Source: Trypanosoma brucei
Taxonomy: Eukaryota
Length of the DNA stretch: 64,000 bases
Direction: 5' to 3'
Assembly: GCA_000002445.1 (NCBI GenBank)
Contig: CH464491.1
Location: forward strand, 2,016,001 to 2,080,000
Part shown: positions 5,546 through 55,420 of the stretch, in pieces
Position numbering within the stretch: position 1 is the first letter of the stretch
Layout: every line of letters begins with the position of its first letter
Made by a program: the position numbers and the translations under genes
The notes under the pieces: generated by a model
Databases searched by the model: none
The model's input: the letters and a program-made list of their open reading frames with translations, nothing else
Told to the model about the DNA's origin: nothing

Positions 5546-6349
5546 ATGCCCGTGCTCCCGCCGTGGCGGCAGCGGACCTCCATTTTTCACCGTTCGGAGG
5601 GTCGTGTACAAAGTGTTGACGCGACGAGGATTTCTCTGGTGGCGGCTGCAGGACTTGTCGCTTCACAATCAGCTACGTTTACCGTCCTCTATTTGTTTCT
5701 TCCCGAGGGACTGGCAGGTTTGACGCATTTGATGGTTGCGGCGGTGCTGTTCAACGCATTTATGTTGTGGAATTGGGGGTCTGATCCGGGGTTTGTGACT
5801 TCTTCGGAGGAGCCTTCAACGGCAAGGGAGAGGGCGATCCGTAGATGGTGTTCTGTGTGTCGTCTGTTGCAGCCCCTGCGGACCAAACACTGTGACAAGT
5901 GCGGCAGATGTGTCCGGAAGTACGATCACCATTGTTACTGCATTGGTGGTTGTGTTGGCGAGTTCAATCATGTGCGTTTCGTTCTTACTTTGGCGTCTGC
6001 AGTCCCTTATTTTGTCCTTCTACCACCGGCACTACTTAAATGTTTTAGTCTCGGGGATATCATAGACCTCGACCGCGTCATCAGTAGGAATATCGTTCCC
6101 TTTATTTTTGTTGCATACACCACCATTCAATTGGTACTTGTGCTCTCTTTGCTTGGGTTGCACTGCACTCTGTTGCTCAACAACAAGACAACGTGGGAGC
6201 TCTCTTCCAGAGGCCGCATCACATATCTGGATTCAAGGGCAGCGAACCCCTTTAACAAGGGGATTGTGCAGAATGTTTACTTTCTTTTTCGGCGGAAGCC
6301 CATAAACTGGTATTCAGTATTGGAAGAGGATGAATGTGCCCTCGTCTAA
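5546..6349 (+). CDS. DHHC-type zinc-finger palmitoyl acyltransferase
   Basis: ATG verified at 5546. Cys-rich domain 'CSVCRLLQPLRTKHCDKCGRCVRKYDHHCYCIGGCVGEFNH' carries the DHHC motif, flanked by predicted transmembrane segments. A polypyrimidine tract lies upstream at about 5395–5440. Confidence 0.85.
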   Translation: MPVLPPWRQRTSIFHRSEGRVQSVDATRISLVAAAGLVASQSATFTVLYLFLPEGLAGLTHLMVAAVLFNAFMLWNWGSDPGFVTSSEEPSTARERAIRRWCSVCRLLQPLRTKHCDKCGRCVRKYDHHCYCIGGCVGEFNHVRFVLTLASAVPYFVLLPPALLKCFSLGDIIDLDRVISRNIVPFIFVAYTTIQLVLVLSLLGLHCTLLLNNKTTWELSSRGRITYLDSRAANPFNKGIVQNVYFLFRRKPINWYSVLEEDECALV

Positions 6350-7521
6350 ATAATATTTTTGCCTTGCAATTTACTTACGCCCAGCGAGACCTGGACATGC
6401 CACTCTGTCGTGCTCGCCATGGAATTCGTGCTAGTGGCTTGTAGACTCGCTGCTCTATGTTACTCAAAACATATTGATGCTTGCGGATGCCTTTTTCGTG
6501 TGAGGGGGCGGCCCGTGTTGAAACACAACTGTCGTTTCCATACGTCGTTGAGAAAGTTTAATACTCTCTTGCTGGTTCATATTTGGTGTCTCAAATGCGC
6601 GCCTTTATGTTATACCCCTCTCAGCGTTTTTGTTTTCGCGAAGGTTTATCCTGATTATCATTTAGTTTACGCGTTTGTCACCCCTAGATATCTCATGGAC
6701 TGAAAGGGATAGAAATGAAGAGCGAGAAAAGGGGTTTCTCGTTTCCGAATTTTCGTCACATCAAGTTGAAGGTCGCCTGTGCCGCACTCTTCCCGGTTAA
6801 AAAATCTATGTTGTGCCAAGCCATTCACTGGCAGCTGAGGTGCTTCCCAGTAACGCGTGAGCCTCGTTGGTTTTCTTGGCTCAGCACCCTTTCGCGTAAG
6901 AGGTCTTGCAACCCAAATTGTCACCTTCAACTCCGAATACAGGAACATACCAGCGTGTGGTGCAAACCCACCATCTCAAGAGAAGGAAGGTGACTTCCCG
7001 AGTAATCTGGAGAGCAGACACCCTGAGAGAGATTATGCCACTTGACAGCTGCATCAGAATAGCCACATGGCGCCAGCACACTCATGGGAGATTTGTGGTT
7101 ATAATTGATATGCAAGACTGCCATCCCGGAGGAAACCGTTCGACCAGTGTCTGCATCTGCCGCAACCCACCATGTCCCGCAAACCGTTCACTGTATGCCA
7201 CACTCCTCCACACAGCGTGGCGTTCTAACGCATGATACAGGGTTGATTTCGGACGGACAAGCGCACAAAAAAGAGATACGTTGAACGATGAAGATGGACC
7301 GCAGCTCCAGTGATGTACTGTCAGTGTCAGTGTCAGTTCTGTTGGCTGACGGTAACGGGTCAGTACAGCACTGTAATGTTGGCTTCCCTCCATCTGATCT
7401 TGTGGGTCCTCATCAGGTATTTTCTTCGTTATTATTGTGTTTGTTTGTGTTTTGAAGCAGCTGTAGCAAAGGTTTTTTGCACTTTGACGTATTGTTGTTC
7501 GGCGTGTTGTGTTGCTCGCTG

Positions 7522-50544: not shown

Positions 50545-51513
50545 ATGGGAGAGGAGGTAGTTAGGTTAGATGGACATGGCGTAACTGATGGCACGGTGGC
50601 TGGTTTGTGTGATCACCGTAATATCCGACGCGTGGAATTAACGAACTGCACCCGCATCACTGATATCAGCCCATTGGCCAATATTTTTACGCTCGAAGAG
50701 GTGGTCATACGCAACTGCCAGTCCGTGCGTTACGTTGGAACACTTGGCCAATCGCAGCCGTCTCTGCGCAGAATTGAATTCACGGGGACCCCTCTGACAG
50801 GAGAGCAGCTGCAACTTCTTAGAAGTGCGCAAGCGCAATTAATTCTTAGAGACGGCGACTTTCCAGTACAACTGAAGCAACCAGGACAACTCCTCGTCAA
50901 GGAATCCATCGATGTTGTCAAGGGCATCGTAAGTCAGTTCAAGCCTGAAGAAATTGGGATTGCCTTCAATGGTGGCAAGGATTCTGTGGTTATGATGGAC
51001 ATCCTCTACTGTGTCATGGGGGCAGAATTCATTTCTCAGTGTTGTGTGTTTCATCTCAACACAATCAACGATAAGGAGTTTCACGAAGTGGTGGAGTTCA
51101 GGAAGGCATTCGCTGCTGCCAGAAAACTCTCTATAGTTCAATCTGATCAGATGTTATCCATGAAGGACGGGCTTGAACAAGTCAAGAAAACGATGGGTAT
51201 TCGAGTAGCTTTCATGGGAACGCGCAAAGCGGACGGTTGCCATCAAATGACTGGTGTAGAGAGAACCACGGCGGGCTGGCCTGATCTGCTGCGCGCCTGC
51301 CCGCTGTTTTGTTGGGAGTATGAAGATGTTTGGGGCTACATACGGACCTATGATCTTCCCTTCTGTGAATTGTATGAAAAAGGATATACTTCCCTTGGAG
51401 GCGCGAACAGCACCATTCCAAATTCTCACCTGTCCCGCGAGGATGGAACGTTCCGCCCCGCCTGGGAATTGGCTAATGGGAGGTCTGAGCGATGTGGAAG
51501 GCTAAGCACATGA
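50545..51513 (+). CDS. Leucine-rich-repeat N-terminal region fused to an FAD synthetase (FMN adenylyltransferase, PAPS-reductase-like fold)
   Basis: ATG at 50545. N-terminal leucine-rich repeats (LTNCTRITDISPLANIFTLEEVVIRNCQSVRYVG...). PP-loop 'IGIAFNGGKDSVVMMDILYCV' and a downstream FAD1-like region 'MGTRKADG...GWPD...CPLFCWEYEDVWGYIRTYDLPFCELYEKGYTSLG'. Confidence 0.75.
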   Translation: MGEEVVRLDGHGVTDGTVAGLCDHRNIRRVELTNCTRITDISPLANIFTLEEVVIRNCQSVRYVGTLGQSQPSLRRIEFTGTPLTGEQLQLLRSAQAQLILRDGDFPVQLKQPGQLLVKESIDVVKGIVSQFKPEEIGIAFNGGKDSVVMMDILYCVMGAEFISQCCVFHLNTINDKEFHEVVEFRKAFAAARKLSIVQSDQMLSMKDGLEQVKKTMGIRVAFMGTRKADGCHQMTGVERTTAGWPDLLRACPLFCWEYEDVWGYIRTYDLPFCELYEKGYTSLGGANSTIPNSHLSREDGTFRPAWELANGRSERCGRLST

Positions 51514-52059
51514 GGAGGCGGGGTATGATGTGGTGTGGCGCGCTCGAGATGGGGAAGGAGTTCGTGCGGCAGCGCAAATTAAGGAGGTGAAAGAAGGTGA
51601 GTGGAGCTAAAGGGGGATTGTGGGCGACAAAGAACAAGTCAGTTGTGATGGGCCACGGGGTGGGTGATCAACCGTTGTTATGCGTCTTACGGTTATTTTT
51701 TTAACGATATTTGGTGCGTTTCGTGGGGAGCTGCAGTTTTGCAGTGAACCGGAAAGTGTTGTACCACTTCGGTTTTTTTTTCTGCCGCTGGAGTTTTGGC
51801 GACGTAAACTGTATAATCTGTACTGTTCAGTTGGTGATAGTTCTGCAACTTTCTTTTGCTGGTTTGCAATATTGTGTGACTCTGTACTTTGTTGACATCA
51901 CACCAAAGGCTAATTACGGTACATCTTTTACAGGACAAACGAATTGGAGTACAACTTAGGGTTGTAAGGAGGAAATAGAAGTGACGAGGGAGAAAGCTGC
52001 CTTCGCTTTGGGTGTGGTGCTTCCTGTGCAATTTCATCCCTAAACTTTCTTCTTTCAGT

Positions 52060-52470
52060 ATGAGCCGTGCCAACGTGCCGTTCAATCCGATGAGGCGGAC
52101 CCCTCCGCCTCCACCCTGCATTGACACATTCACGCTCGTTCCCAGTGATTACATGTCGATGTTATCAGCAGATGGTCATAAATTCGTACTTCATCGTGAC
52201 TGTGCGTGTGCCTCACCTCTTATTCGTAAGGCACTTACAAATCTCGTGGACCCCGGCGTTCCGGAGATGCGCTTCGACTGGGCCAATGGTGACAATGAGC
52301 CTCCGGTTATTTACTTTACAAAAGCGCCAACTGCATTATTAGAGGTGGTTATCAAGTATCTGTACTACAAGCATAGATATGAAGGAGATACCGATTACCG
52401 ACCGCCATTCGACGTGCCACGCCAAATCGCCCTCGATATCATGAAGCTCGCGCAGGTACTCCAATGTTAA
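52060..52470 (+). CDS. Elongin C-like protein (Skp1/BTB-POZ fold)
   Basis: The track start at 52012 is GTG; the first ATG is at 52060. 'LVPSDYMSMLSADGHKFVLHRDCACASPLIRKAL' and 'LEVVIKYLYYKHRYEGDTDYRPPFDVPRQIALDIMKLAQVLQC' parallel the Elongin C pattern (I.SSDGHEF.V.R..A..SGTIKAML ... YF.YK.RY...EIPEF.I..E.ALELL.AANFLDC). Confidence 0.75.
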   Translation: MSRANVPFNPMRRTPPPPPCIDTFTLVPSDYMSMLSADGHKFVLHRDCACASPLIRKALTNLVDPGVPEMRFDWANGDNEPPVIYFTKAPTALLEVVIKYLYYKHRYEGDTDYRPPFDVPRQIALDIMKLAQVLQC

Positions 52471-52693
52471 CCACTCACCCTCTCTTTCGGTGGTTCTGCA
52501 TGTGCATGGACATGTGATATGTTGTTGCCTCTATACCAAAAGAGAGAGAAGGGCGAAATGTGTAGGTGTAAACAGCGATTCTTCAATCTAACCATGGTTT
52601 CACACCTGCGTGTCATAACACAAGCCCCTTTTTATGATTGCCATCCGCCTCTTCTCCTCGCACGGCTTTTTCTTCTGGTTTCAAGGGGTTATC

Positions 52694-53272
52694 ATGAAAA
52701 GGGCAAAGGCACTTGTTGTTGCCGAGCAGGCCACACCGCAAGTGATTCCATGTGAGCCGTCCTACATGGTGTGTTTAGAATCCTCTGATGGGCATCGTTT
52801 CTTAGTGGACCGAAACTGTGCTATGGTGAGTGGCGTGATGCGGCAAGCCATGCGCAACAAACTTTCAGATTTTGATGACAACAACTCCTCCCATGTGGCG
52901 GCAAACGCAACTTCCACCGCAGATGGGACGGTTTGTCCTGCCTCTCTGTCACCCACAACGTTTGAAACGGCTACCTTTTCCTCCTCCATCGCTTCCTCCG
53001 TATGCTCCGAGGATTGCGCGAGTACCATGGGAAACCTCATGTCACCCACGCAACGCGGGGAGGAGGTATGCACGATGACAAAAATTGGATCGTTAGAATA
53101 TGAAGTTATTAAACTGGATGAGATACCCGGGGACCTCCTTGACCTCGCAGTGCAAGAGATGTACTACAAGTACAGGTACGATGGGGAGCCGGAGAAGCGA
53201 CCGCAGGAACCAACGCATACTGTAGATATGAGGTACAAACTCGCTGCGTTGAGCGTCCTCCTAGATATGTAA
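52694..53272 (+). CDS. Second, divergent Elongin C/Skp1-fold paralogue with an internal S/T/A-rich insertion
   Basis: Same frame as the track ORF 52634..53272. Start placed at the ATG at 52694, since the first 20 track codons look like untranslated sequence. 'SYMVCLESSDGHRFLVDRNCAMVSGVMRQAMRN' and 'LDLAVQEMYYKYRYDGEPEKRPQEPTHTVDMRYKLAALSVLLDM' align with the upstream paralogue. They are separated by a low-complexity insertion of about 90 aa. Confidence 0.65.
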   Translation: MKRAKALVVAEQATPQVIPCEPSYMVCLESSDGHRFLVDRNCAMVSGVMRQAMRNKLSDFDDNNSSHVAANATSTADGTVCPASLSPTTFETATFSSSIASSVCSEDCASTMGNLMSPTQRGEEVCTMTKIGSLEYEVIKLDEIPGDLLDLAVQEMYYKYRYDGEPEKRPQEPTHTVDMRYKLAALSVLLDM

Positions 53273-53620
53273 TACCTTGCGGATCAGTTCTATTCACAAG
53301 CAGAAGTGGTGTTTGATCATGGTCACCCAGAGGGGGAAAGGGGGTCGGCGCGTGTGTGCATGTGCATGTATTGGGAGTGTAAAATTATTGTGATATGTGG
53401 TGGAACCCCGCGTCACACAAGAAACTGTCAGAGAAGCTGCATGTAGTGTCGTTCTCCCATGCTTTTTGATCTTCACTGCTTTTCGCACCGTGTTTTCTGC
53501 TGTTCTCACCCATTGATATTTCTTTTCAGTGGTGTTTTGCCCACCAGCACCTGGTGGTGACACCGCTTGGATTTTGTTTTCCGATTTTATTTTATTTTTC
53601 GTTGGCAGTGGGACGCTACG

Positions 53621-55420
53621 ATGAGTAGGGATCGTGGTGGTATAGAGCTTGTTTCTCATGGCAGAGGGGTACGTGACTGCTTCGAAGAGAATGAAAGCGC
53701 TTCTGATGCGCCTGATGGTGGCATGGAGTGGGTTTCCAGTGGGGACGCATCCGAGGAATGTGTTAACGACGTTGACGACATTTATAGTAACCGCGATGAT
53801 AGTGGCGCTGATGAGGAAGGAAACGAGTTTGGGCGAGAATATGAGGACGACAGGGGTGAGTTCCGCAGTGGTTTTGCGACAGCATTCAGCAACATTTTAG
53901 CCCGTGACCTGGAAATTCAACAGAGACACTGCCAACAGGTGGAAGGGGCTGGTGTTGACGTTAATCCAAGAGTTGCAACCGCCGACGGCCAGGTGGCAAC
54001 GGCGGGAGCGAAGGAGAAAATTTGCTGCATTTGCAAGGACAAATCTGTTTATACATGCCCTGGCTGCGGTGCCCGGACATGCAGCATGACGTGTGTGCGT
54101 GTTCATAAGGCGCAGTTCAATTGCAGTGGGGAGCGCAATGTTGCCGAGAAAGTGCCCCTAAGTGAGTTCACAGATAAGCAACTTGAACGCGACTTCCACT
54201 TCTTGGAGGACACACGTCGCGTGATAAGTAATTGTGAGCGCACGTTTCCAAAAATGTGGCGCTACACTTTTAGGGCGCTTCCTCCCCCACTTTATGCCCT
54301 ACGAAAGGCTGCAAAGCAGCGAGGAGTTGTATGCCAAATAACCTCCGAGGGAATGTCTAAGCGTGACGCAAACACATCCCGGTTTGATCGCAGGACAGAA
54401 ACGATCATCTGGCGTTGCCAGTTTAACTTCCACACCCCCAATTTCACCGTATCCACAGACTGGGGAAATGAAAGGCACAAACTTGGCGATATTTTGACGT
54501 ACTGCTGGGCTAAAAATCCACCGGTCCACTGTTTTCACATTAATCGAAGGTACAACCGTGCCTCCAAGTGGATTGGGATTGAGGGAGAAAGGGAAGGGAA
54601 AGAAGTGGAACGGGAAGAAGAAGGGGAAAAGGACAAGGAGAATGTTGAAAATGGAAGGGAAGAGAACGAAAGTGTGGAATTCAGGTGCTCCGGTGCCAGT
54701 GACACTTTAGCCGACATCAGTACAAGAAAAGAGGACTCAAATGATGAGGATGGTGCCGTCGGACCTCTGTTCGTCGAAGTGGGTGACAAACAACAGCAAC
54801 AACAAGTATGGAAGCCGTCAGTACTGGACATTAGTCCCCAGTCGCCCGAGGAAACTAAAAGTAAAGAAACTGTTTCTGCGTTCCTCTCTCTGGGTCCCGT
54901 CATTATTTTAGCGCAGGCAGAGCGACTCGGACTGGAGAAGAAGTATTTTCGGCTTTCCCCATCTCAAACCCTCAATGAGACATTGCGTACCCTCTTCTTC
55001 ATCAATGAGTTTCCTGTGTTCGAAGTCATTCATGCATCAGATCTCGAGTCCTATGCTCTGGTCACGGATGCTGACAAGGAGCGGATACGCGAGAGTTTCC
55101 GTGCAGCTCCACGTCCAACGAAGCCGGAGCGCCCACCGCGTCCAACGAAATCAACCTTGACACCGGAGGAGCGTGACCGTTATGCTCAGGTGCCGTGCCG
55201 CCTCTTTCTCGCGGGGTGTTGTAAACTCGGTGAAGAGGAGTGCCCGTACAGACACTGTGAATATCAGGACGTCCCGGTTTGCCGTAGTTTCATGAAGTTC
55301 GCTTCCTGTGAAAAAGGCAACCGGTGCGTGTTTCGGCACGATGCCACCGCCGTAGCGACGGCAAGGAAACGAATGCGAGAGGAGCGCCAGGCTGTACAAC
55401 TAGGCAGGCGGCGTTTTTAG
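53621..55420 (+). CDS. Zinc-finger protein with an N-terminal HIT-type zinc finger and two C-terminal CCCH zinc fingers
   Basis: The track start at 53567 is TTG; the first ATG is at 53621. zf-HIT 'CCICKDKSVYTCPGCGARTCSMTCVRVHKAQFNC'. C-terminal CCCH pair 'CRLFLAGCCKLGEEECPYRHC' and 'CRSFMKFASCEKGNRCVFRH'. Acidic, low-complexity middle region. Confidence 0.75.
   Translation: MSRDRGGIELVSHGRGVRDCFEENESASDAPDGGMEWVSSGDASEECVNDVDDIYSNRDDSGADEEGNEFGREYEDDRGEFRSGFATAFSNILARDLEIQQRHCQQVEGAGVDVNPRVATADGQVATAGAKEKICCICKDKSVYTCPGCGARTCSMTCVRVHKAQFNCSGERNVAEKVPLSEFTDKQLERDFHFLEDTRRVISNCERTFPKMWRYTFRALPPPLYALRKAAKQRGVVCQITSEGMSKRDANTSRFDRRTETIIWRCQFNFHTPNFTVSTDWGNERHKLGDILTYCWAKNPPVHCFHINRRYNRASKWIGIEGEREGKEVEREEEGEKDKENVENGREENESVEFRCSGASDTLADISTRKEDSNDEDGAVGPLFVEVGDKQQQQQVWKPSVLDISPQSPEETKSKETVSAFLSLGPVIILAQAERLGLEKKYFRLSPSQTLNETLRTLFFINEFPVFEVIHASDLESYALVTDADKERIRESFRAAPRPTKPERPPRPTKSTLTPEERDRYAQVPCRLFLAGCCKLGEEECPYRHCEYQDVPVCRSFMKFASCEKGNRCVFRHDATAVATARKRMREERQAVQLGRRRF

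What the first reader, a model, noticed from the sequence alone, without database searches (positions are those of the whole stretch)
52060..53272. Tandem pair of divergent Elongin C/Skp1-fold genes
Two adjacent + strand genes, 52060–52470 and 52694–53272, encode clearly paralogous small proteins with the Elongin C signature. The match covers both the N-terminal block (SxDGHxFxVxRxCAxxSxxxRxAxxN) and the C-terminal block (YYKxRYxGxxxxRPxxxxxxxxxxLxxLxxLL). The second copy carries a low-complexity insertion of about 90 aa (S/T/A-rich, some acidic residues) between the two halves of the fold. A tandem, diverged pair suggests sub-functionalisation. One copy may serve a cullin–RING ligase adaptor while the other has been recruited elsewhere, for example to a transcription-elongation complex.
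Basis: partly seen in the sequence, partly recalled or inferred. Interest (0 to 1): 0.6.

Follow-up and report, generated by a model that had tools for sequence, protein, structure and literature searches.

The report
Ancient tandem Elongin C paralogues, Trypanosoma
Two neighbouring Trypanosoma brucei genes encode an Elongin C orthologue and a much more diverged, kinetoplastid-specific sister copy; both are real and very old, but what they bind is unknown, so this is a modest addition to a well-known family of ubiquitin-ligase adaptor proteins.

Summary
The window is T. brucei TREU927 chromosome 11.

- **Copy 1** (52060-52470, 136 aa) is Tb927.11.7430. It matches human Elongin C over its full length (E 5e-9; family profile 2.7e-12).
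- **Copy 2** (52694-53272, 192 aa) is presumably Tb927.11.7440. It is a diverged paralogue: profile-profile E 7e-17 to copy 1, and its predicted fold matches only Elongin C chains.
- **Insertion:** it is a disordered S/T/A-rich loop. Net size is about 61 aa, not about 90.
- **Age of the pair:** the gene order PAPS-reductase-domain gene, copy 1, copy 2, BCD1 is identical in T. cruzi, T. theileri and Angomonas deanei. It also appears on two unnamed sequencing-run contigs and on a bioreactor-metagenome contig. The duplication therefore predates the split of Trypanosoma from Angomonas, and probably the trypanosomatids altogether.
- **Key residues:** copy 1 keeps the BC-box groove residues. Copy 2 has replaced several of them and has its own invariant signature. 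Both lack the human Cul2-pocket residues.
- **Experimental data:** copy 1 is detected by proteomics and is tagged to axoneme and cytoplasm. Neither protein appears in the stored supplementary tables of the study that immunoprecipitated six T. brucei cullins.

Sub-functionalisation is plausible. The transcription-elongation idea has no support. This is a new member of a known kind, of modest interest.

The parts
52060..52470 (+). Copy 1 coding sequence with stop: 136 aa, Tb927.11.7430 / UniProt Q384S2. It is the kinetoplastid Elongin C orthologue ('A1-type').
   Evidence: ORF. Identity with Tb927.11.7430 rests on length, strand and record location 2092278-2092688(+) and on an exact protein match in NCBI/UniRef. 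Full-length match to human Elongin C: phmmer E 5e-9, family profile E 2.7e-12. Foldseek top 50 hits are all Elongin C-containing entries, target-normalised TM-score (TMt) 0.75-0.91, 25-31% identity.
52078..52128 (+). Copy 1 residues 7-23 (PFNPMRRTPPPPPCIDT): a proline-rich N-terminal motif absent from human Elongin C.
   Evidence: F8, N9, P10, M11, R12, T14, P15-P17, P19, D22 and T23 are invariant across seven Trypanosoma species. The motif recurs in Leptomonas, Angomonas and unnamed distant relatives. AlphaFold2 pLDDT is below 50, so it is probably a disordered linear motif.
52144..52467 (+). Copy 1 residues 29-136: the Elongin C fold (two N-terminal strands, short helices, two further strands, two long helices), ending at the last helix.
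   Evidence: Aligned with human Elongin C residues 17-112. Model pLDDT is 63-88 per 10-residue block across the fold, 77-88 outside the aa 61-80 loop. BC-box groove residues are conserved.
52020..52058 (+). Pyrimidine-rich tract ending in AG (52057-52058), directly upstream of the copy 1 ATG. Probable trans-splice acceptor region.
   Evidence: Read directly from the sequence. Its function is inferred from the known organisation of trypanosome splice acceptors, not tested.
52626..52693 (+). Pyrimidine-rich tract with AG at 52684-52685, upstream of the copy 2 ATG. It overlaps the 20-codon extension (from ATG 52634) of the database 212-aa gene model and is probably 5' UTR or splice acceptor, not coding.
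   Evidence: Sequence. Orthologues start at the equivalent of 52694. All amino-acid differences among Trypanozoon strains fall in these 20 codons, while the remaining 192 aa are identical. T. equiperdum is annotated at 192 aa.
52694..53272 (+). Copy 2 coding sequence with stop: 192 aa, UniProt Q384S1, presumably Tb927.11.7440. A diverged, kinetoplastid-specific Elongin C paralogue ('A2-type').
   Evidence: ORF. hhalign against the copy 1 family: 98.8%, E 7.4e-17. Human Elongin C by phmmer: E 1.3e-3. Score of 65.9 bits against a profile of 51 canonical Elongin C sequences. Foldseek top 50 hits are all Elongin C-containing entries, TMt 0.71-0.86. The gene ID is inferred from gene order only.
52763..52858 (+). 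Copy 2 residues 24-55: the N-terminal conserved block (two strands and a helix) with the family signature F-L-x-D-R-N-C-A-x-V-S.
   Evidence: Invariant columns. pLDDT 81-93. N34 (human numbering) is invariant in 34 of 34 A2-type sequences.
52859..53086 (+). Copy 2 residues 56-131: variable S/T/A-rich loop, mostly predicted disordered, at the position of human Elongin C loop 48-58.
   Evidence: pLDDT below 50 for most of aa 63-124. Length and sequence are not conserved among orthologues, whose total lengths run from 127 to 431 aa. Composition.
53087..53269 (+). Copy 2 residues 132-192: the C-terminal conserved block (two strands, long helix with MYYKYRYDGEPEKRP, last helix ending SVLLDM).
   Evidence: Invariant columns. 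pLDDT 81-91. Aligned to copy 1 residues 77-131.

Best explanation
**What it is.** The two genes are an ancient, syntenically fixed tandem duplicate of Elongin C. Elongin C is the small BTB/Skp1-fold adaptor that holds a helical 'BC-box' of a substrate-receptor protein in a hydrophobic groove. In animals and yeast it links that receptor to a cullin-RING ubiquitin ligase.

**Copy 1 (Tb927.11.7430)** is the orthologue.
- It aligns end to end with human Elongin C.
- It keeps the groove residues (human Y76, Y79, Y83, F93, A100, L101, L103, A107, L110, C112).
- It most likely still clamps a BC-box-like helix of one or more receptor proteins (inferred).

**Copy 2** is a paralogue found here only in kinetoplastid-type sequences.
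- It keeps the fold but has replaced Y76, F93 and A100.
- It has its own near-invariant set (D32-R33-N34-C35, M77, Y81, D84, A105, S107 in human numbering).
- It has a free-evolving disordered loop.
- It most likely binds a different set of partners, that is, it is a neo- or sub-functionalised adaptor (inferred).

**Scaffold.** In both copies the two human residues that form the Cul2-binding pocket (M105, F109) are replaced. The scaffold they dock to is therefore not a Cul2/Cul5-type interface. It could be one of the two T. brucei cullins without known adaptors (TbCul-B, TbCul-C) or a non-cullin complex (inferred).

**Shown versus inferred.** Shown here: gene structure, homology, predicted fold, age and synteny of the duplication, the residue patterns, protein expression of copy 1 and its axoneme/cytoplasm tag. 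Inferred: everything about partners.
For: - **Homology of copy 1:** phmmer against human Elongin C E 5e-9 over residues 29-136; family profile E 2.7e-12.
- **Homology of copy 2:** hhalign against the copy 1 family 98.8%, E 7.4e-17. It scores 65.9 bits against a canonical Elongin C profile, where human SKP1 scores 56.2 bits. It scores 2.5 bits against human SKP1 itself but 23.9 bits against human Elongin C.
- **Fold:** AlphaFold2 models of both, searched against the PDB with Foldseek, give only Elongin C-containing entries in the top 50. Both proteins end at the last Elongin C helix, with no Skp1 C-terminal domain.
- **Age and synteny:** the order PAPS_reduct gene, A1-type, A2-type, BCD1 gene is found in T. 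brucei, T. cruzi, T. theileri, Angomonas deanei and an unnamed run contig. A second run contig shows a partial version. A bioreactor metagenome contig shows PAPS_reduct, A1, A2.
- **Two families:** 34 A1-type and 34 A2-type sequences separate cleanly by profile score.
- **Residue patterns:** per-position counts are. The role of M105 and F109 in Cul2 binding comes from PMC5462531.
- **Expression:** Tb927.11.7430 has 7 unique peptides and 56.6% coverage in the bloodstream-form proteome. TrypTag places both N- and C-terminal tags at axoneme and cytoplasm (PMC12816148 supplement 7).
- **Selection on copy 2:** the ORF is intact with 37 invariant columns across eight Trypanosoma species, and the 192-aa part is 100% identical among Trypanozoon strains.
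Against: - No partner of either protein is known.
- Neither gene ID occurs in the stored supplementary tables of the study that immunoprecipitated six of the seven T. brucei cullins. In that study TbCul-B could not be tagged and TbCul-C yielded no adaptors.
- I found no protein-level or localisation evidence for copy 2. Several of those supplementary files were truncated when stored, so this absence is weak.
- An axonemal signal is not what a classical Elongin C predicts.
- Pfam Skp1_POZ is below its gathering threshold for both proteins.
- The structure models rest on shallow alignments of 7-8 sequences (mean pLDDT 67 and 73).
- The assignment of groove residues comes from my knowledge of the VHL-Elongin BC structures and of the ELOC Y79/A100 cancer hotspots. 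It is not a contact calculation made here.
- Tandem conservation says little about functional coupling, because trypanosomatid gene order is conserved generally.
Confidence: 0.7

Rival explanations
1. One reading: one copy is a cullin-RING adaptor and the other was recruited to a Pol II transcription-elongation (Elongin A-type) complex.
For: Elongin C does both jobs in animals, and yeast Elc1 works with Ela1 on RNA polymerase II (established knowledge; summarised in PMC2785787). The two copies differ at partner-binding positions.
Against: The conservative copy is tagged to axoneme and cytoplasm, not the nucleus. Full-text searches found no paper describing an Elongin A or Elongin complex in kinetoplastids. 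Nothing in the sequence of either copy points to the nucleus. Copy 2 localisation is unknown.
Confidence: 0.08
2. One or both proteins are cullin-independent scaffolds. The precedent is the trypanosome Skp1 paralogue SkpZ, which sits in the TUSK deubiquitinase complex rather than in a ligase. For copy 1 the complex might be attached to the axoneme.
For: Neither protein occurs in the stored supplementary tables of the six-cullin immunoprecipitation study. The human Cul2-pocket residues M105 and F109 are replaced in both families. SkpZ is a direct precedent in the same organism (PMC11732084). Copy 1 gives an axoneme signal.
Against: TbCul-B was never purified and TbCul-C gave no adaptors, so two cullins remain open. 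Kinetoplastid cullins are so diverged that loss of the human pocket residues is expected anyway. Adaptor-cullin contacts are dynamic and small proteins are easily missed by mass spectrometry.
Confidence: 0.3
3. The two paralogues work together as a heterodimer. Copy 2 would take the stabilising role that the ubiquitin-like Elongin B has in animals.
For: Both genes are retained in every lineage where both could be checked, and they are adjacent from a presumably free-living relative to T. brucei. I know of no Elongin B described for kinetoplastids. BTB/POZ-fold proteins often pair through their N-terminal strands (established knowledge).
Against: This is pure inference. No complex prediction could be run, and Elongin B presence was not tested. 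In Phytomonas EM1 the copy 2 orthologue sits alone in another neighbourhood. Gene adjacency carries no functional meaning in polycistronic trypanosomatid genomes.
Confidence: 0.1
4. Copy 2 is a decaying or non-functional duplicate. A related version is that both are ordinary Skp1 proteins that bind F-box receptors.
For: Copy 2 has a weak direct match to Elongin C (E about 1e-3), a low-complexity insertion, and no proteomic evidence that I could find. Pfam names the only weak hit Skp1_POZ.
Against: The ORF is intact, with 37 invariant positions across Trypanosoma and a shared signature in 34 distant relatives. It is identical among Trypanozoon strains, whereas the adjacent non-coding stretch varies. 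No Skp1 C-terminal (F-box-binding) domain is present: both proteins end at the Elongin C terminus and fold searches return Elongin C only. Both genes are absent from the published T. brucei Skp1 paralogue sets.
Confidence: 0.02

Closest known systems
Human Elongin C (ELOC/TCEB1), adaptor of CRL2 and CRL5 ligases and subunit of the Elongin (SIII) complex
   Same: Same fold and same end point, with no Skp1 C-terminal domain. Copy 1 aligns over the whole protein (25-31% identity in structural alignments) and keeps Y76, Y79, K80, Y83, P91, F93, A100, L101, L103, A107, L110 and C112. Copy 2 keeps the fold, the S-x-DG-x-F strand motif and the YK-x-RY...RP helix motif.
   Different: Both copies lack the Cul2-pocket residues: M105 becomes K/R in copy 1 and A in copy 2, and F109 becomes V/L/T or L/I. 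Copy 1 adds an invariant proline-rich N-terminal motif. Copy 2 replaces Y76, F93 and A100 and has a long disordered loop. Partners (Elongin B, BC-box proteins, cullin) are unknown. Copy 1 is tagged to the axoneme.
Saccharomyces cerevisiae Elc1 (Elongin C working with Ela1 and Cul3, without Elongin B)
   Same: An Elongin C in an organism without Cul2/Cul5 and, as far as is known, without Elongin B. It shows that the family can use other scaffolds (PMC2785787; otherwise my own knowledge). Yeast Elongin C chains are also hit by the copy 1 profile (E 2e-6).
   Different: Yeast has a single gene. There is no evidence here for a Pol II-degradation role or for an Ela1-like partner.
Trypanosome Skp1 paralogues Skp1.2, Skp1.3, Skp1.4 and SkpZ (PMC12816148, PMC11732084)
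   Same: Lineage-specific expansion of small Skp1/BTB-fold adaptors in the same organism. Some bind lineage-specific cullins with kelch or LRR receptors, and one (SkpZ) sits in a deubiquitinase complex.
   Different: They are different genes (Tb927.9.8370, Tb927.11.13330, Tb927.10.14310, Tb927.10.11610). The two genes studied here are absent from those inventories. They belong to the Elongin C branch, not the Skp1 branch.

Membership tests
Elongin C | Sequence homology to solved Elongin C over the whole domain (copy 1) | tested here: met
   phmmer E 5e-9 for residues 29-136 against chain residues 4-100. Family profile E 2.7e-12. 86.6 bits against a profile of 51 canonical sequences.
Elongin C | Sequence homology to Elongin C over the whole domain (copy 2) | tested here: met
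   The direct match is weak (E 1.3e-3, N-terminal block only; profile E 3.9e-3). However, hhalign against the copy 1 family gives E 7.4e-17 over both blocks. A single alignment spanning both blocks scores 65.9 bits against the canonical profile, above the 56.2 bits of human SKP1.
Elongin C | BTB/Skp1-like alpha/beta fold that ends after helix 4, without the Skp1 F-box-binding C-terminal domain | tested here: met
   AlphaFold2 models. Foldseek against the PDB returns only Elongin C-containing entries in the top 50 for both. Both C-termini align with the human C-terminus. These are predicted structures from shallow alignments.
Elongin C | Pfam Skp1_POZ (PF03931) at or above the gathering score | tested here: not met
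   15.2 bits (copy 1) and 17.8 bits (copy 2) against a cut-off of 21.9. 13 of 17 family members hit at E <= 0.1, best 6.6e-6. T. cruzi copy 1 has a Skp1_POZ (PF03931) hit on record: precomputed, marked faint.
Elongin C | Conserved hydrophobic groove residues that hold the BC-box helix (human Y76, Y79, F93, A100, L103, L104, A107, L110) | tested here: met
   Copy 1 family: Y76 33/34, Y79 25/34, F93 28/34, A100 32/34, A107 31/34, L110 32/34. Which residues form the groove is taken from my own knowledge of the VHL-Elongin BC structures.
Elongin C | The same groove residues in copy 2 | tested here: not met
   A2-type family: Y76 becomes F18/A6/E5 (E in T. brucei), F93 becomes E or a gap, A100 becomes R12/A7, A107 becomes S24. 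L103 and L110 are kept.
Elongin C | Cullin-2 pocket residues M105 and F109 | tested here: not met
   Copy 1 family: K21/R6 at 105 and V10/L7/T4 at 109. Copy 2 family: A31 at 105 and L25/I6 at 109. The importance of these residues comes from PMC5462531. Cul2 and Cul5 are animal-specific, so this does not exclude family membership.
Elongin C | Physical binding to Elongin B, a BC-box protein and a cullin | not testable with these tools
Neither gene ID occurs in the stored supplementary tables of the six-cullin immunoprecipitation study.
Skp1 proper | C-terminal Skp1 domain (PF01466) that forms the F-box-binding helices | tested here: not met
   No such Pfam hit at E <= 10. Both proteins end at the Elongin C terminus. 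phmmer with human SKP1 (sequence from memory) gives 2.5 and -1.5 bits.
Published T. brucei Skp1 paralogue set (Skp1.1, 1.2, 1.3, 1.4, SkpZ) | Identity with one of the listed gene IDs | tested here: not met
   The listed IDs are Tb927.11.6130, 9.8370, 11.13330, 10.14310 and 10.11610. Copy 1 is Tb927.11.7430. The T. grayi Skp1.3 orthologue DQ04_07401030 differs from the copy 2 orthologue DQ04_01671080. Neither ID occurs in the TUSK paper supplements.

The most novel reading that the evidence does not exclude
Kinetoplastids may build an Elongin BC-like adaptor from two Elongin C paralogues, with copy 2 substituting for Elongin B. Alternatively, the pair may form a cullin-independent module attached to the axoneme, so that an 'Elongin C' system regulates flagellar protein turnover or assembly rather than nuclear or cytosolic substrates.
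Probability: 0.1. Interest if true: 0.6.

Novelty: new member of a known kind. Interest (0 to 1): 0.33.

Why it matters
Trypanosome cullin-RING ligases are being mapped as lineage-specific machines and possible drug targets. Two of the seven cullins still have no known adaptor.

The two published inventories of Skp1-type adaptors omit both genes. One of them used Elongin B as its 'Skp1-like' outgroup. Recognising a conserved Elongin C orthologue and an old kinetoplastid-specific sister gives two concrete, testable adaptor candidates for those orphan cullins, or for a cullin-independent complex like TUSK.

It also shows that Elongin C duplicated and diverged early in this lineage. That bears on the claim that elongin-based ligases are recent animal and fungal inventions. 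Beyond that, the finding is an annotation refinement of a well-known fold.

Tried and rejected
1. **Copy 2 as Skp1.3.** I suspected copy 2 was the published Skp1.3 (Tb927.11.13330), because UniProt and T. equiperdum name it a Skp1 POZ protein. Rejected: the T. grayi orthologue IDs differ, and the neighbour Tb927.11.13340 is an 819-aa minus-strand gene unlike anything next to copy 2.
2. **Gene ID searches.** The IDs Tb927.11.7430/7440 and the old-style IDs Tb11.02.5330/5340 (derived from my memory of neighbouring genes) occur in the main text of no held paper. Tb927.11.7430 was confirmed through a supplementary table. Tb927.11.7440 was found nowhere, so it remains inferred from gene order.
3. 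**Localisation of copy 2.** The held TrypTag supplements (PMC9981465) and the TUSK supplements contain neither ID.
4. **Naming distant homologues.** Most representatives come from unnamed sequencing-run assemblies. Searching the run accessions in the literature gave nothing. The organisms behind L005, L006 and L007 therefore remain unnamed.
5. **AlphaFold database fold search.** This would have given organism names, but the library was not available.
6. **Phytomonas locus.** I expected a tandem pair and found copy 2 alone, with a small membrane protein upstream.
7. **Literature.** Searches for any kinetoplastid Elongin C, BC-box or SOCS-box study found only a passing remark that orthologues of an Rbx/cullin/elongin ligase exist in T. 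brucei (PMC4619645).
8. **Phylogenetic tree.** I did not build one. About 95 alignable positions and no maximum-likelihood tool would not have resolved more than the profile-score split plus synteny.
Full report
**1. Observation**

The products share two collinear blocks. BLASTP gives 34% identity over 61 aa (E 4e-9) and 38% over 39 aa (E 6e-8).

Between the blocks, copy 2 has 76 residues (43% S+T+A, 12% D+E) where copy 1 has 15. The net insertion is therefore about 61 aa, not about 90.

**2. Source and gene identity**

Exact protein matches place the window on T. brucei brucei TREU927 chromosome 11.

- Copy 1 is UniProt Q384S2. A supplementary proteomics table gives Tb927.11.7430 as a 136-aa '+' gene at Tb927_11_v5.1:2092278-2092688, which is the same length as 52060-52470.
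- Copy 2 is Q384S1. By gene order it should be Tb927.11.7440, but I could not confirm that ID.
- All long ORFs in the window are on the + strand, as expected for one polycistronic unit. Those scanned include glycerol-3-phosphate dehydrogenase, a complex I subunit, a leishmanolysin, a PAPS-reductase-domain protein, BCD1 and RRP44.

**3. Family assignment**

*Copy 1.*
- It aligns with human Elongin C from residue 29 to its last residue (E 5e-9). A profile of seven Trypanosoma orthologues gives E 2.7e-12.
- Its AlphaFold2 model has pLDDT of 63-88 per 10-residue block across the fold, 77-88 outside the aa 61-80 loop. The first 25 residues are disordered.
- In a Foldseek search of the PDB, all top 50 hits are Elongin C-containing entries (target-normalised TM-score 0.75-0.91, 25-31% identity).

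*Copy 2.*
- It is much more diverged. The direct match to Elongin C has E about 1e-3 and covers the N-terminal block only. Its own profile scores a plant SKP1-like protein and Elongin C about equally.
- Three results settle the assignment:
  - The orthologue profiles of the two copies align at 98.8% probability, E 7.4e-17, across both blocks.
  - A profile of 51 canonical Elongin C sequences scores copy 2 at 65.9 bits in one alignment spanning the insertion. Human SKP1 scores 56.2 bits against the same profile. Human SKP1 itself scores copy 2 at 2.5 bits, whereas human Elongin C scores it at 23.9 bits.
  - Its model has a core with pLDDT of 80-93 outside the aa 51-60 block (70) and an insertion mostly below 50. 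It also returns only Elongin C-containing entries in the top 50 (TM-score 0.71-0.86).
- Both proteins stop at the Elongin C C-terminus, so neither has the F-box-binding domain of Skp1.
- Pfam Skp1_POZ is below threshold for both (15.2 and 17.8 bits against 21.9). It is nevertheless hit by 13 of 17 family members.

**4. Start codon of copy 2**

The database model starts at ATG 52634 (212 aa). Four observations favour 52694 (192 aa):

- Orthologues begin at the equivalent of 52694 (MKK.../MSKK...).
- T. equiperdum is annotated at 192 aa.
- All differences among Trypanozoon strains (R5C, S9L, a one-residue deletion) lie in the 20 extra codons. The other 192 residues are identical.
- The extra codons consist of a pyrimidine-rich tract followed by AG at 52684-52685, the usual look of a trans-splice acceptor (function inferred).

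**5. Age of the duplication**

- Both genes occur in T. congolense, T. vivax, T. grayi, T. theileri, T. melophagium and T. cruzi. Copy 2 was also recovered from T. conorhini and T. rangeli.
- A profile search of 1.84 billion representative proteins found 330 hits. Re-scoring the listed hits with separate profiles split them into 34 copy-1-type and 34 copy-2-type sequences plus canonical Elongin C.
- Named members outside Trypanosoma are Leptomonas seymouri (copy 1 type), Angomonas deanei (both types, consecutive accessions) and two Phytomonas species (copy 2 type).
- The gene order PAPS-reductase-domain gene, copy 1, copy 2, BCD1 is identical in T. brucei, T. cruzi, T. theileri, Angomonas deanei and an unnamed sequencing-run contig. 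A leishmanolysin (Peptidase_M8) gene lies upstream of it in the four named species.
- A second run contig shows a copy 1 C-terminal fragment, then copy 2, then BCD1.
- A bioreactor-metagenome contig shows the PAPS-reductase-domain gene, copy 1, then a short-loop copy 2.
- Trypanosomatids are obligate parasites, so the bioreactor organism is probably a free-living kinetoplastid. In it the two paralogues are already only 30% identical.
- In Phytomonas EM1, copy 2 sits alone in a different neighbourhood.

The duplication therefore predates the split of Trypanosoma from the Angomonas/Leptomonas/Phytomonas lineages, and probably predates the trypanosomatids. Its persistence as a tandem pair is what one expects from the generally conserved trypanosomatid gene order. 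It is not evidence of co-function.

**6. What has changed between the copies**

I aligned each family to human Elongin C and counted residues at each human position.

*Copy 1 family.*
- It keeps the residues that are nearly invariant in canonical Elongin C. From my knowledge of the VHL-Elongin BC structures and of the ELOC Y79/A100 cancer hotspots, these line the BC-box groove.
- Counts out of 34: Y76 33, Y79 25, K80 30, Y83 32, P91 28, F93 28, A100 32, A107 31, L110 32, C112 31.

*Copy 2 family.*
- It has replaced Y76 (F/A/E), F93 (E or gap), A100 (R/A) and A107 (S).
- It has its own near-invariant set: D32 31, R33 30, N34 34, C35 32, M77 32, Y81 33, D84 34, A105 31.

*Both families.*
- M105 and F109 form the pocket for the Cul2 N-terminus and are the most damaging positions to mutate in human Elongin C (PMC5462531).
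- In copy 1 they are K/R and V/L/T. In copy 2 they are A and L/I.
- Cul2 and Cul5 are animal-specific (PMC2785787), so this argues for a different docking partner, not against family membership.

*Other features.*
- Copy 1 orthologues carry an invariant N-terminal motif, (P/A)FNPM(R/K)xxPPPPPxxDT. It is absent from human Elongin C and predicted disordered. It looks like a linear binding motif of unknown partner.
- The loop equivalent to human residues 48-58 is an insertion hot spot in both families. There is a 36-aa insert in T. theileri and T. melophagium copy 1. Copy-1-type proteins reach 200-271 aa in Leptomonas and unnamed relatives. Copy-2-type proteins range from 127 to 431 aa.
- The copy 2 insertion is therefore a free-evolving disordered loop, not a defining feature.

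**7. Experimental data in the literature**

- Two Field-laboratory papers catalogue trypanosome Skp1 paralogues (Skp1.1, 1.2, 1.3, 1.4, SkpZ) and the composition of six of the seven cullin complexes (PMC11732084, PMC12816148). Neither gene studied here is among them.
- TbCul-B could not be tagged, and TbCul-C gave no adaptors.
- Neither Tb927.11.7430 nor Tb927.11.7440 occurs in the stored supplementary tables of that cullin study, apart from the whole-proteome table below.
- In that paper's whole-proteome table, Tb927.11.7430 is detected in bloodstream forms with 7 unique peptides and 56.6% coverage. Its TrypTag annotation is 'axoneme, cytoplasm' for both tag positions.
- I found no data for copy 2. 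Several supplementary files were truncated when stored, so this absence is weak.
- An earlier paper remarks only that orthologues of an Rbx/cullin/elongin ligase exist in T. brucei (PMC4619645).
- No paper on a kinetoplastid Elongin C was found.

**8. Interpretation**

- The best-supported reading is an ancient tandem duplicate of Elongin C. Copy 1 is the conservative orthologue and most likely still holds a BC-box-like helix. Copy 2 keeps the fold but has re-tuned its surfaces, so it most likely serves other partners.
- The scaffold is unknown. TbCul-B, TbCul-C and a cullin-independent complex of the SkpZ/TUSK type are all open.
The only localisation available is non-nuclear.
- A pseudogene reading of copy 2 is excluded by its conservation.
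- A heterodimer in which copy 2 replaces Elongin B is possible but purely speculative.

**9. Novelty and score**

- Automated annotation already names copy 1 'Elongin-C' and copy 2 a Skp1-POZ protein.
- The following appear not to be described in the literature I could search:
  - the recognition of a distinct, old, kinetoplastid-specific Elongin C sister family;
  - its fixed tandem position;
  - its changed groove residues;
  - the copy 1 N-terminal motif;
  - the omission of both genes from the published adaptor inventories.
- This is a new member of a known kind. It gives useful candidates for orphan trypanosome cullins, but it would not surprise a specialist. Interest 0.33.

Noticed in passing
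window 52634-52693: The database gene model of copy 2 (212 aa, starting at ATG 52634) probably starts 20 codons too early. Strain differences cluster there, orthologues start at 52694, and the stretch is a pyrimidine tract ending in AG, like a splice acceptor.
   Followed up: yes
window 52078-52128 (copy 1 aa 7-23): There is an invariant proline-rich N-terminal motif, PFNPM(R/K)xxPPPPPxxDT, in copy 1 orthologues from Trypanosoma to Angomonas, Leptomonas and unnamed relatives. It is absent from human Elongin C and predicted disordered. R12-x-x-P15-x-x-P18 fits a class I SH3-type ligand pattern, but no partner is known.
   Followed up: partly
window 52859-53086; P0005, P0007, P0027-P0031, P0053: The loop equivalent to human Elongin C residues 48-58 is an insertion hot spot in both paralogue families. 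Protein lengths run from 127 to 431 aa with unrelated low-complexity inserts.
   Followed up: partly
window 52060-52470 (Tb927.11.7430): TrypTag annotates this Elongin C orthologue as 'axoneme, cytoplasm' with both N- and C-terminal tags. An axonemal Elongin C is unexpected and unexplained.
   Followed up: no
L001 (Phytomonas sp. EM1, HF955062.1) 6001-6459: The copy 2 orthologue sits alone between a small membrane protein and a COG8/Dor1 gene, so the conserved neighbourhood is broken in Phytomonas. Whether Phytomonas keeps a copy 1 gene elsewhere was not checked.
   Followed up: partly
L007 (bioreactor metagenome ERZ922514) 1166-2100; L006 (SRR7085473) 3-844: The tandem copy 1 / copy 2 arrangement is also present in unnamed organisms with very short intergenic regions (about 180 bp) and short-loop copy 2 proteins. 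These are probably free-living kinetoplastids, but the organisms could not be identified.
   Followed up: partly
window 50545-51513: The upstream gene combines an N-terminal leucine-rich-repeat-like region with a PAPS-reductase/FAD-synthetase-type domain (PF01507, aa 139-291). A PAPS_reduct-domain gene sits immediately upstream of the pair in every species examined. The N-terminal region was judged from the sequence only.
   Followed up: no
window 53567-55420: The downstream gene is a BCD1/zf-HIT protein (a box C/D snoRNP assembly factor type). Its C-terminal cysteine/histidine-rich stretch looks like CCCH zinc fingers. It is syntenic with the pair in all species checked where the downstream gene is present, except Phytomonas.
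   Followed up: no
P0032 (1526 aa) and P0052 (2521 aa): Two very long hits appeared in the profile search. P0032 begins with a normal copy-2-type sequence followed by low-complexity text, probably a run-through gene model. P0052 matches in 11 stretches and does not score with either family profile, so it is probably a repeat artefact.
   Followed up: no
[quoted passage not shown]: The published trypanosome cullin study describes Elongin B as having a Skp1-like domain and uses it as the outgroup for the Skp1 tree. The Skp1-fold subunit is Elongin C, which may explain why the two genes here were not included.
   Followed up: partly
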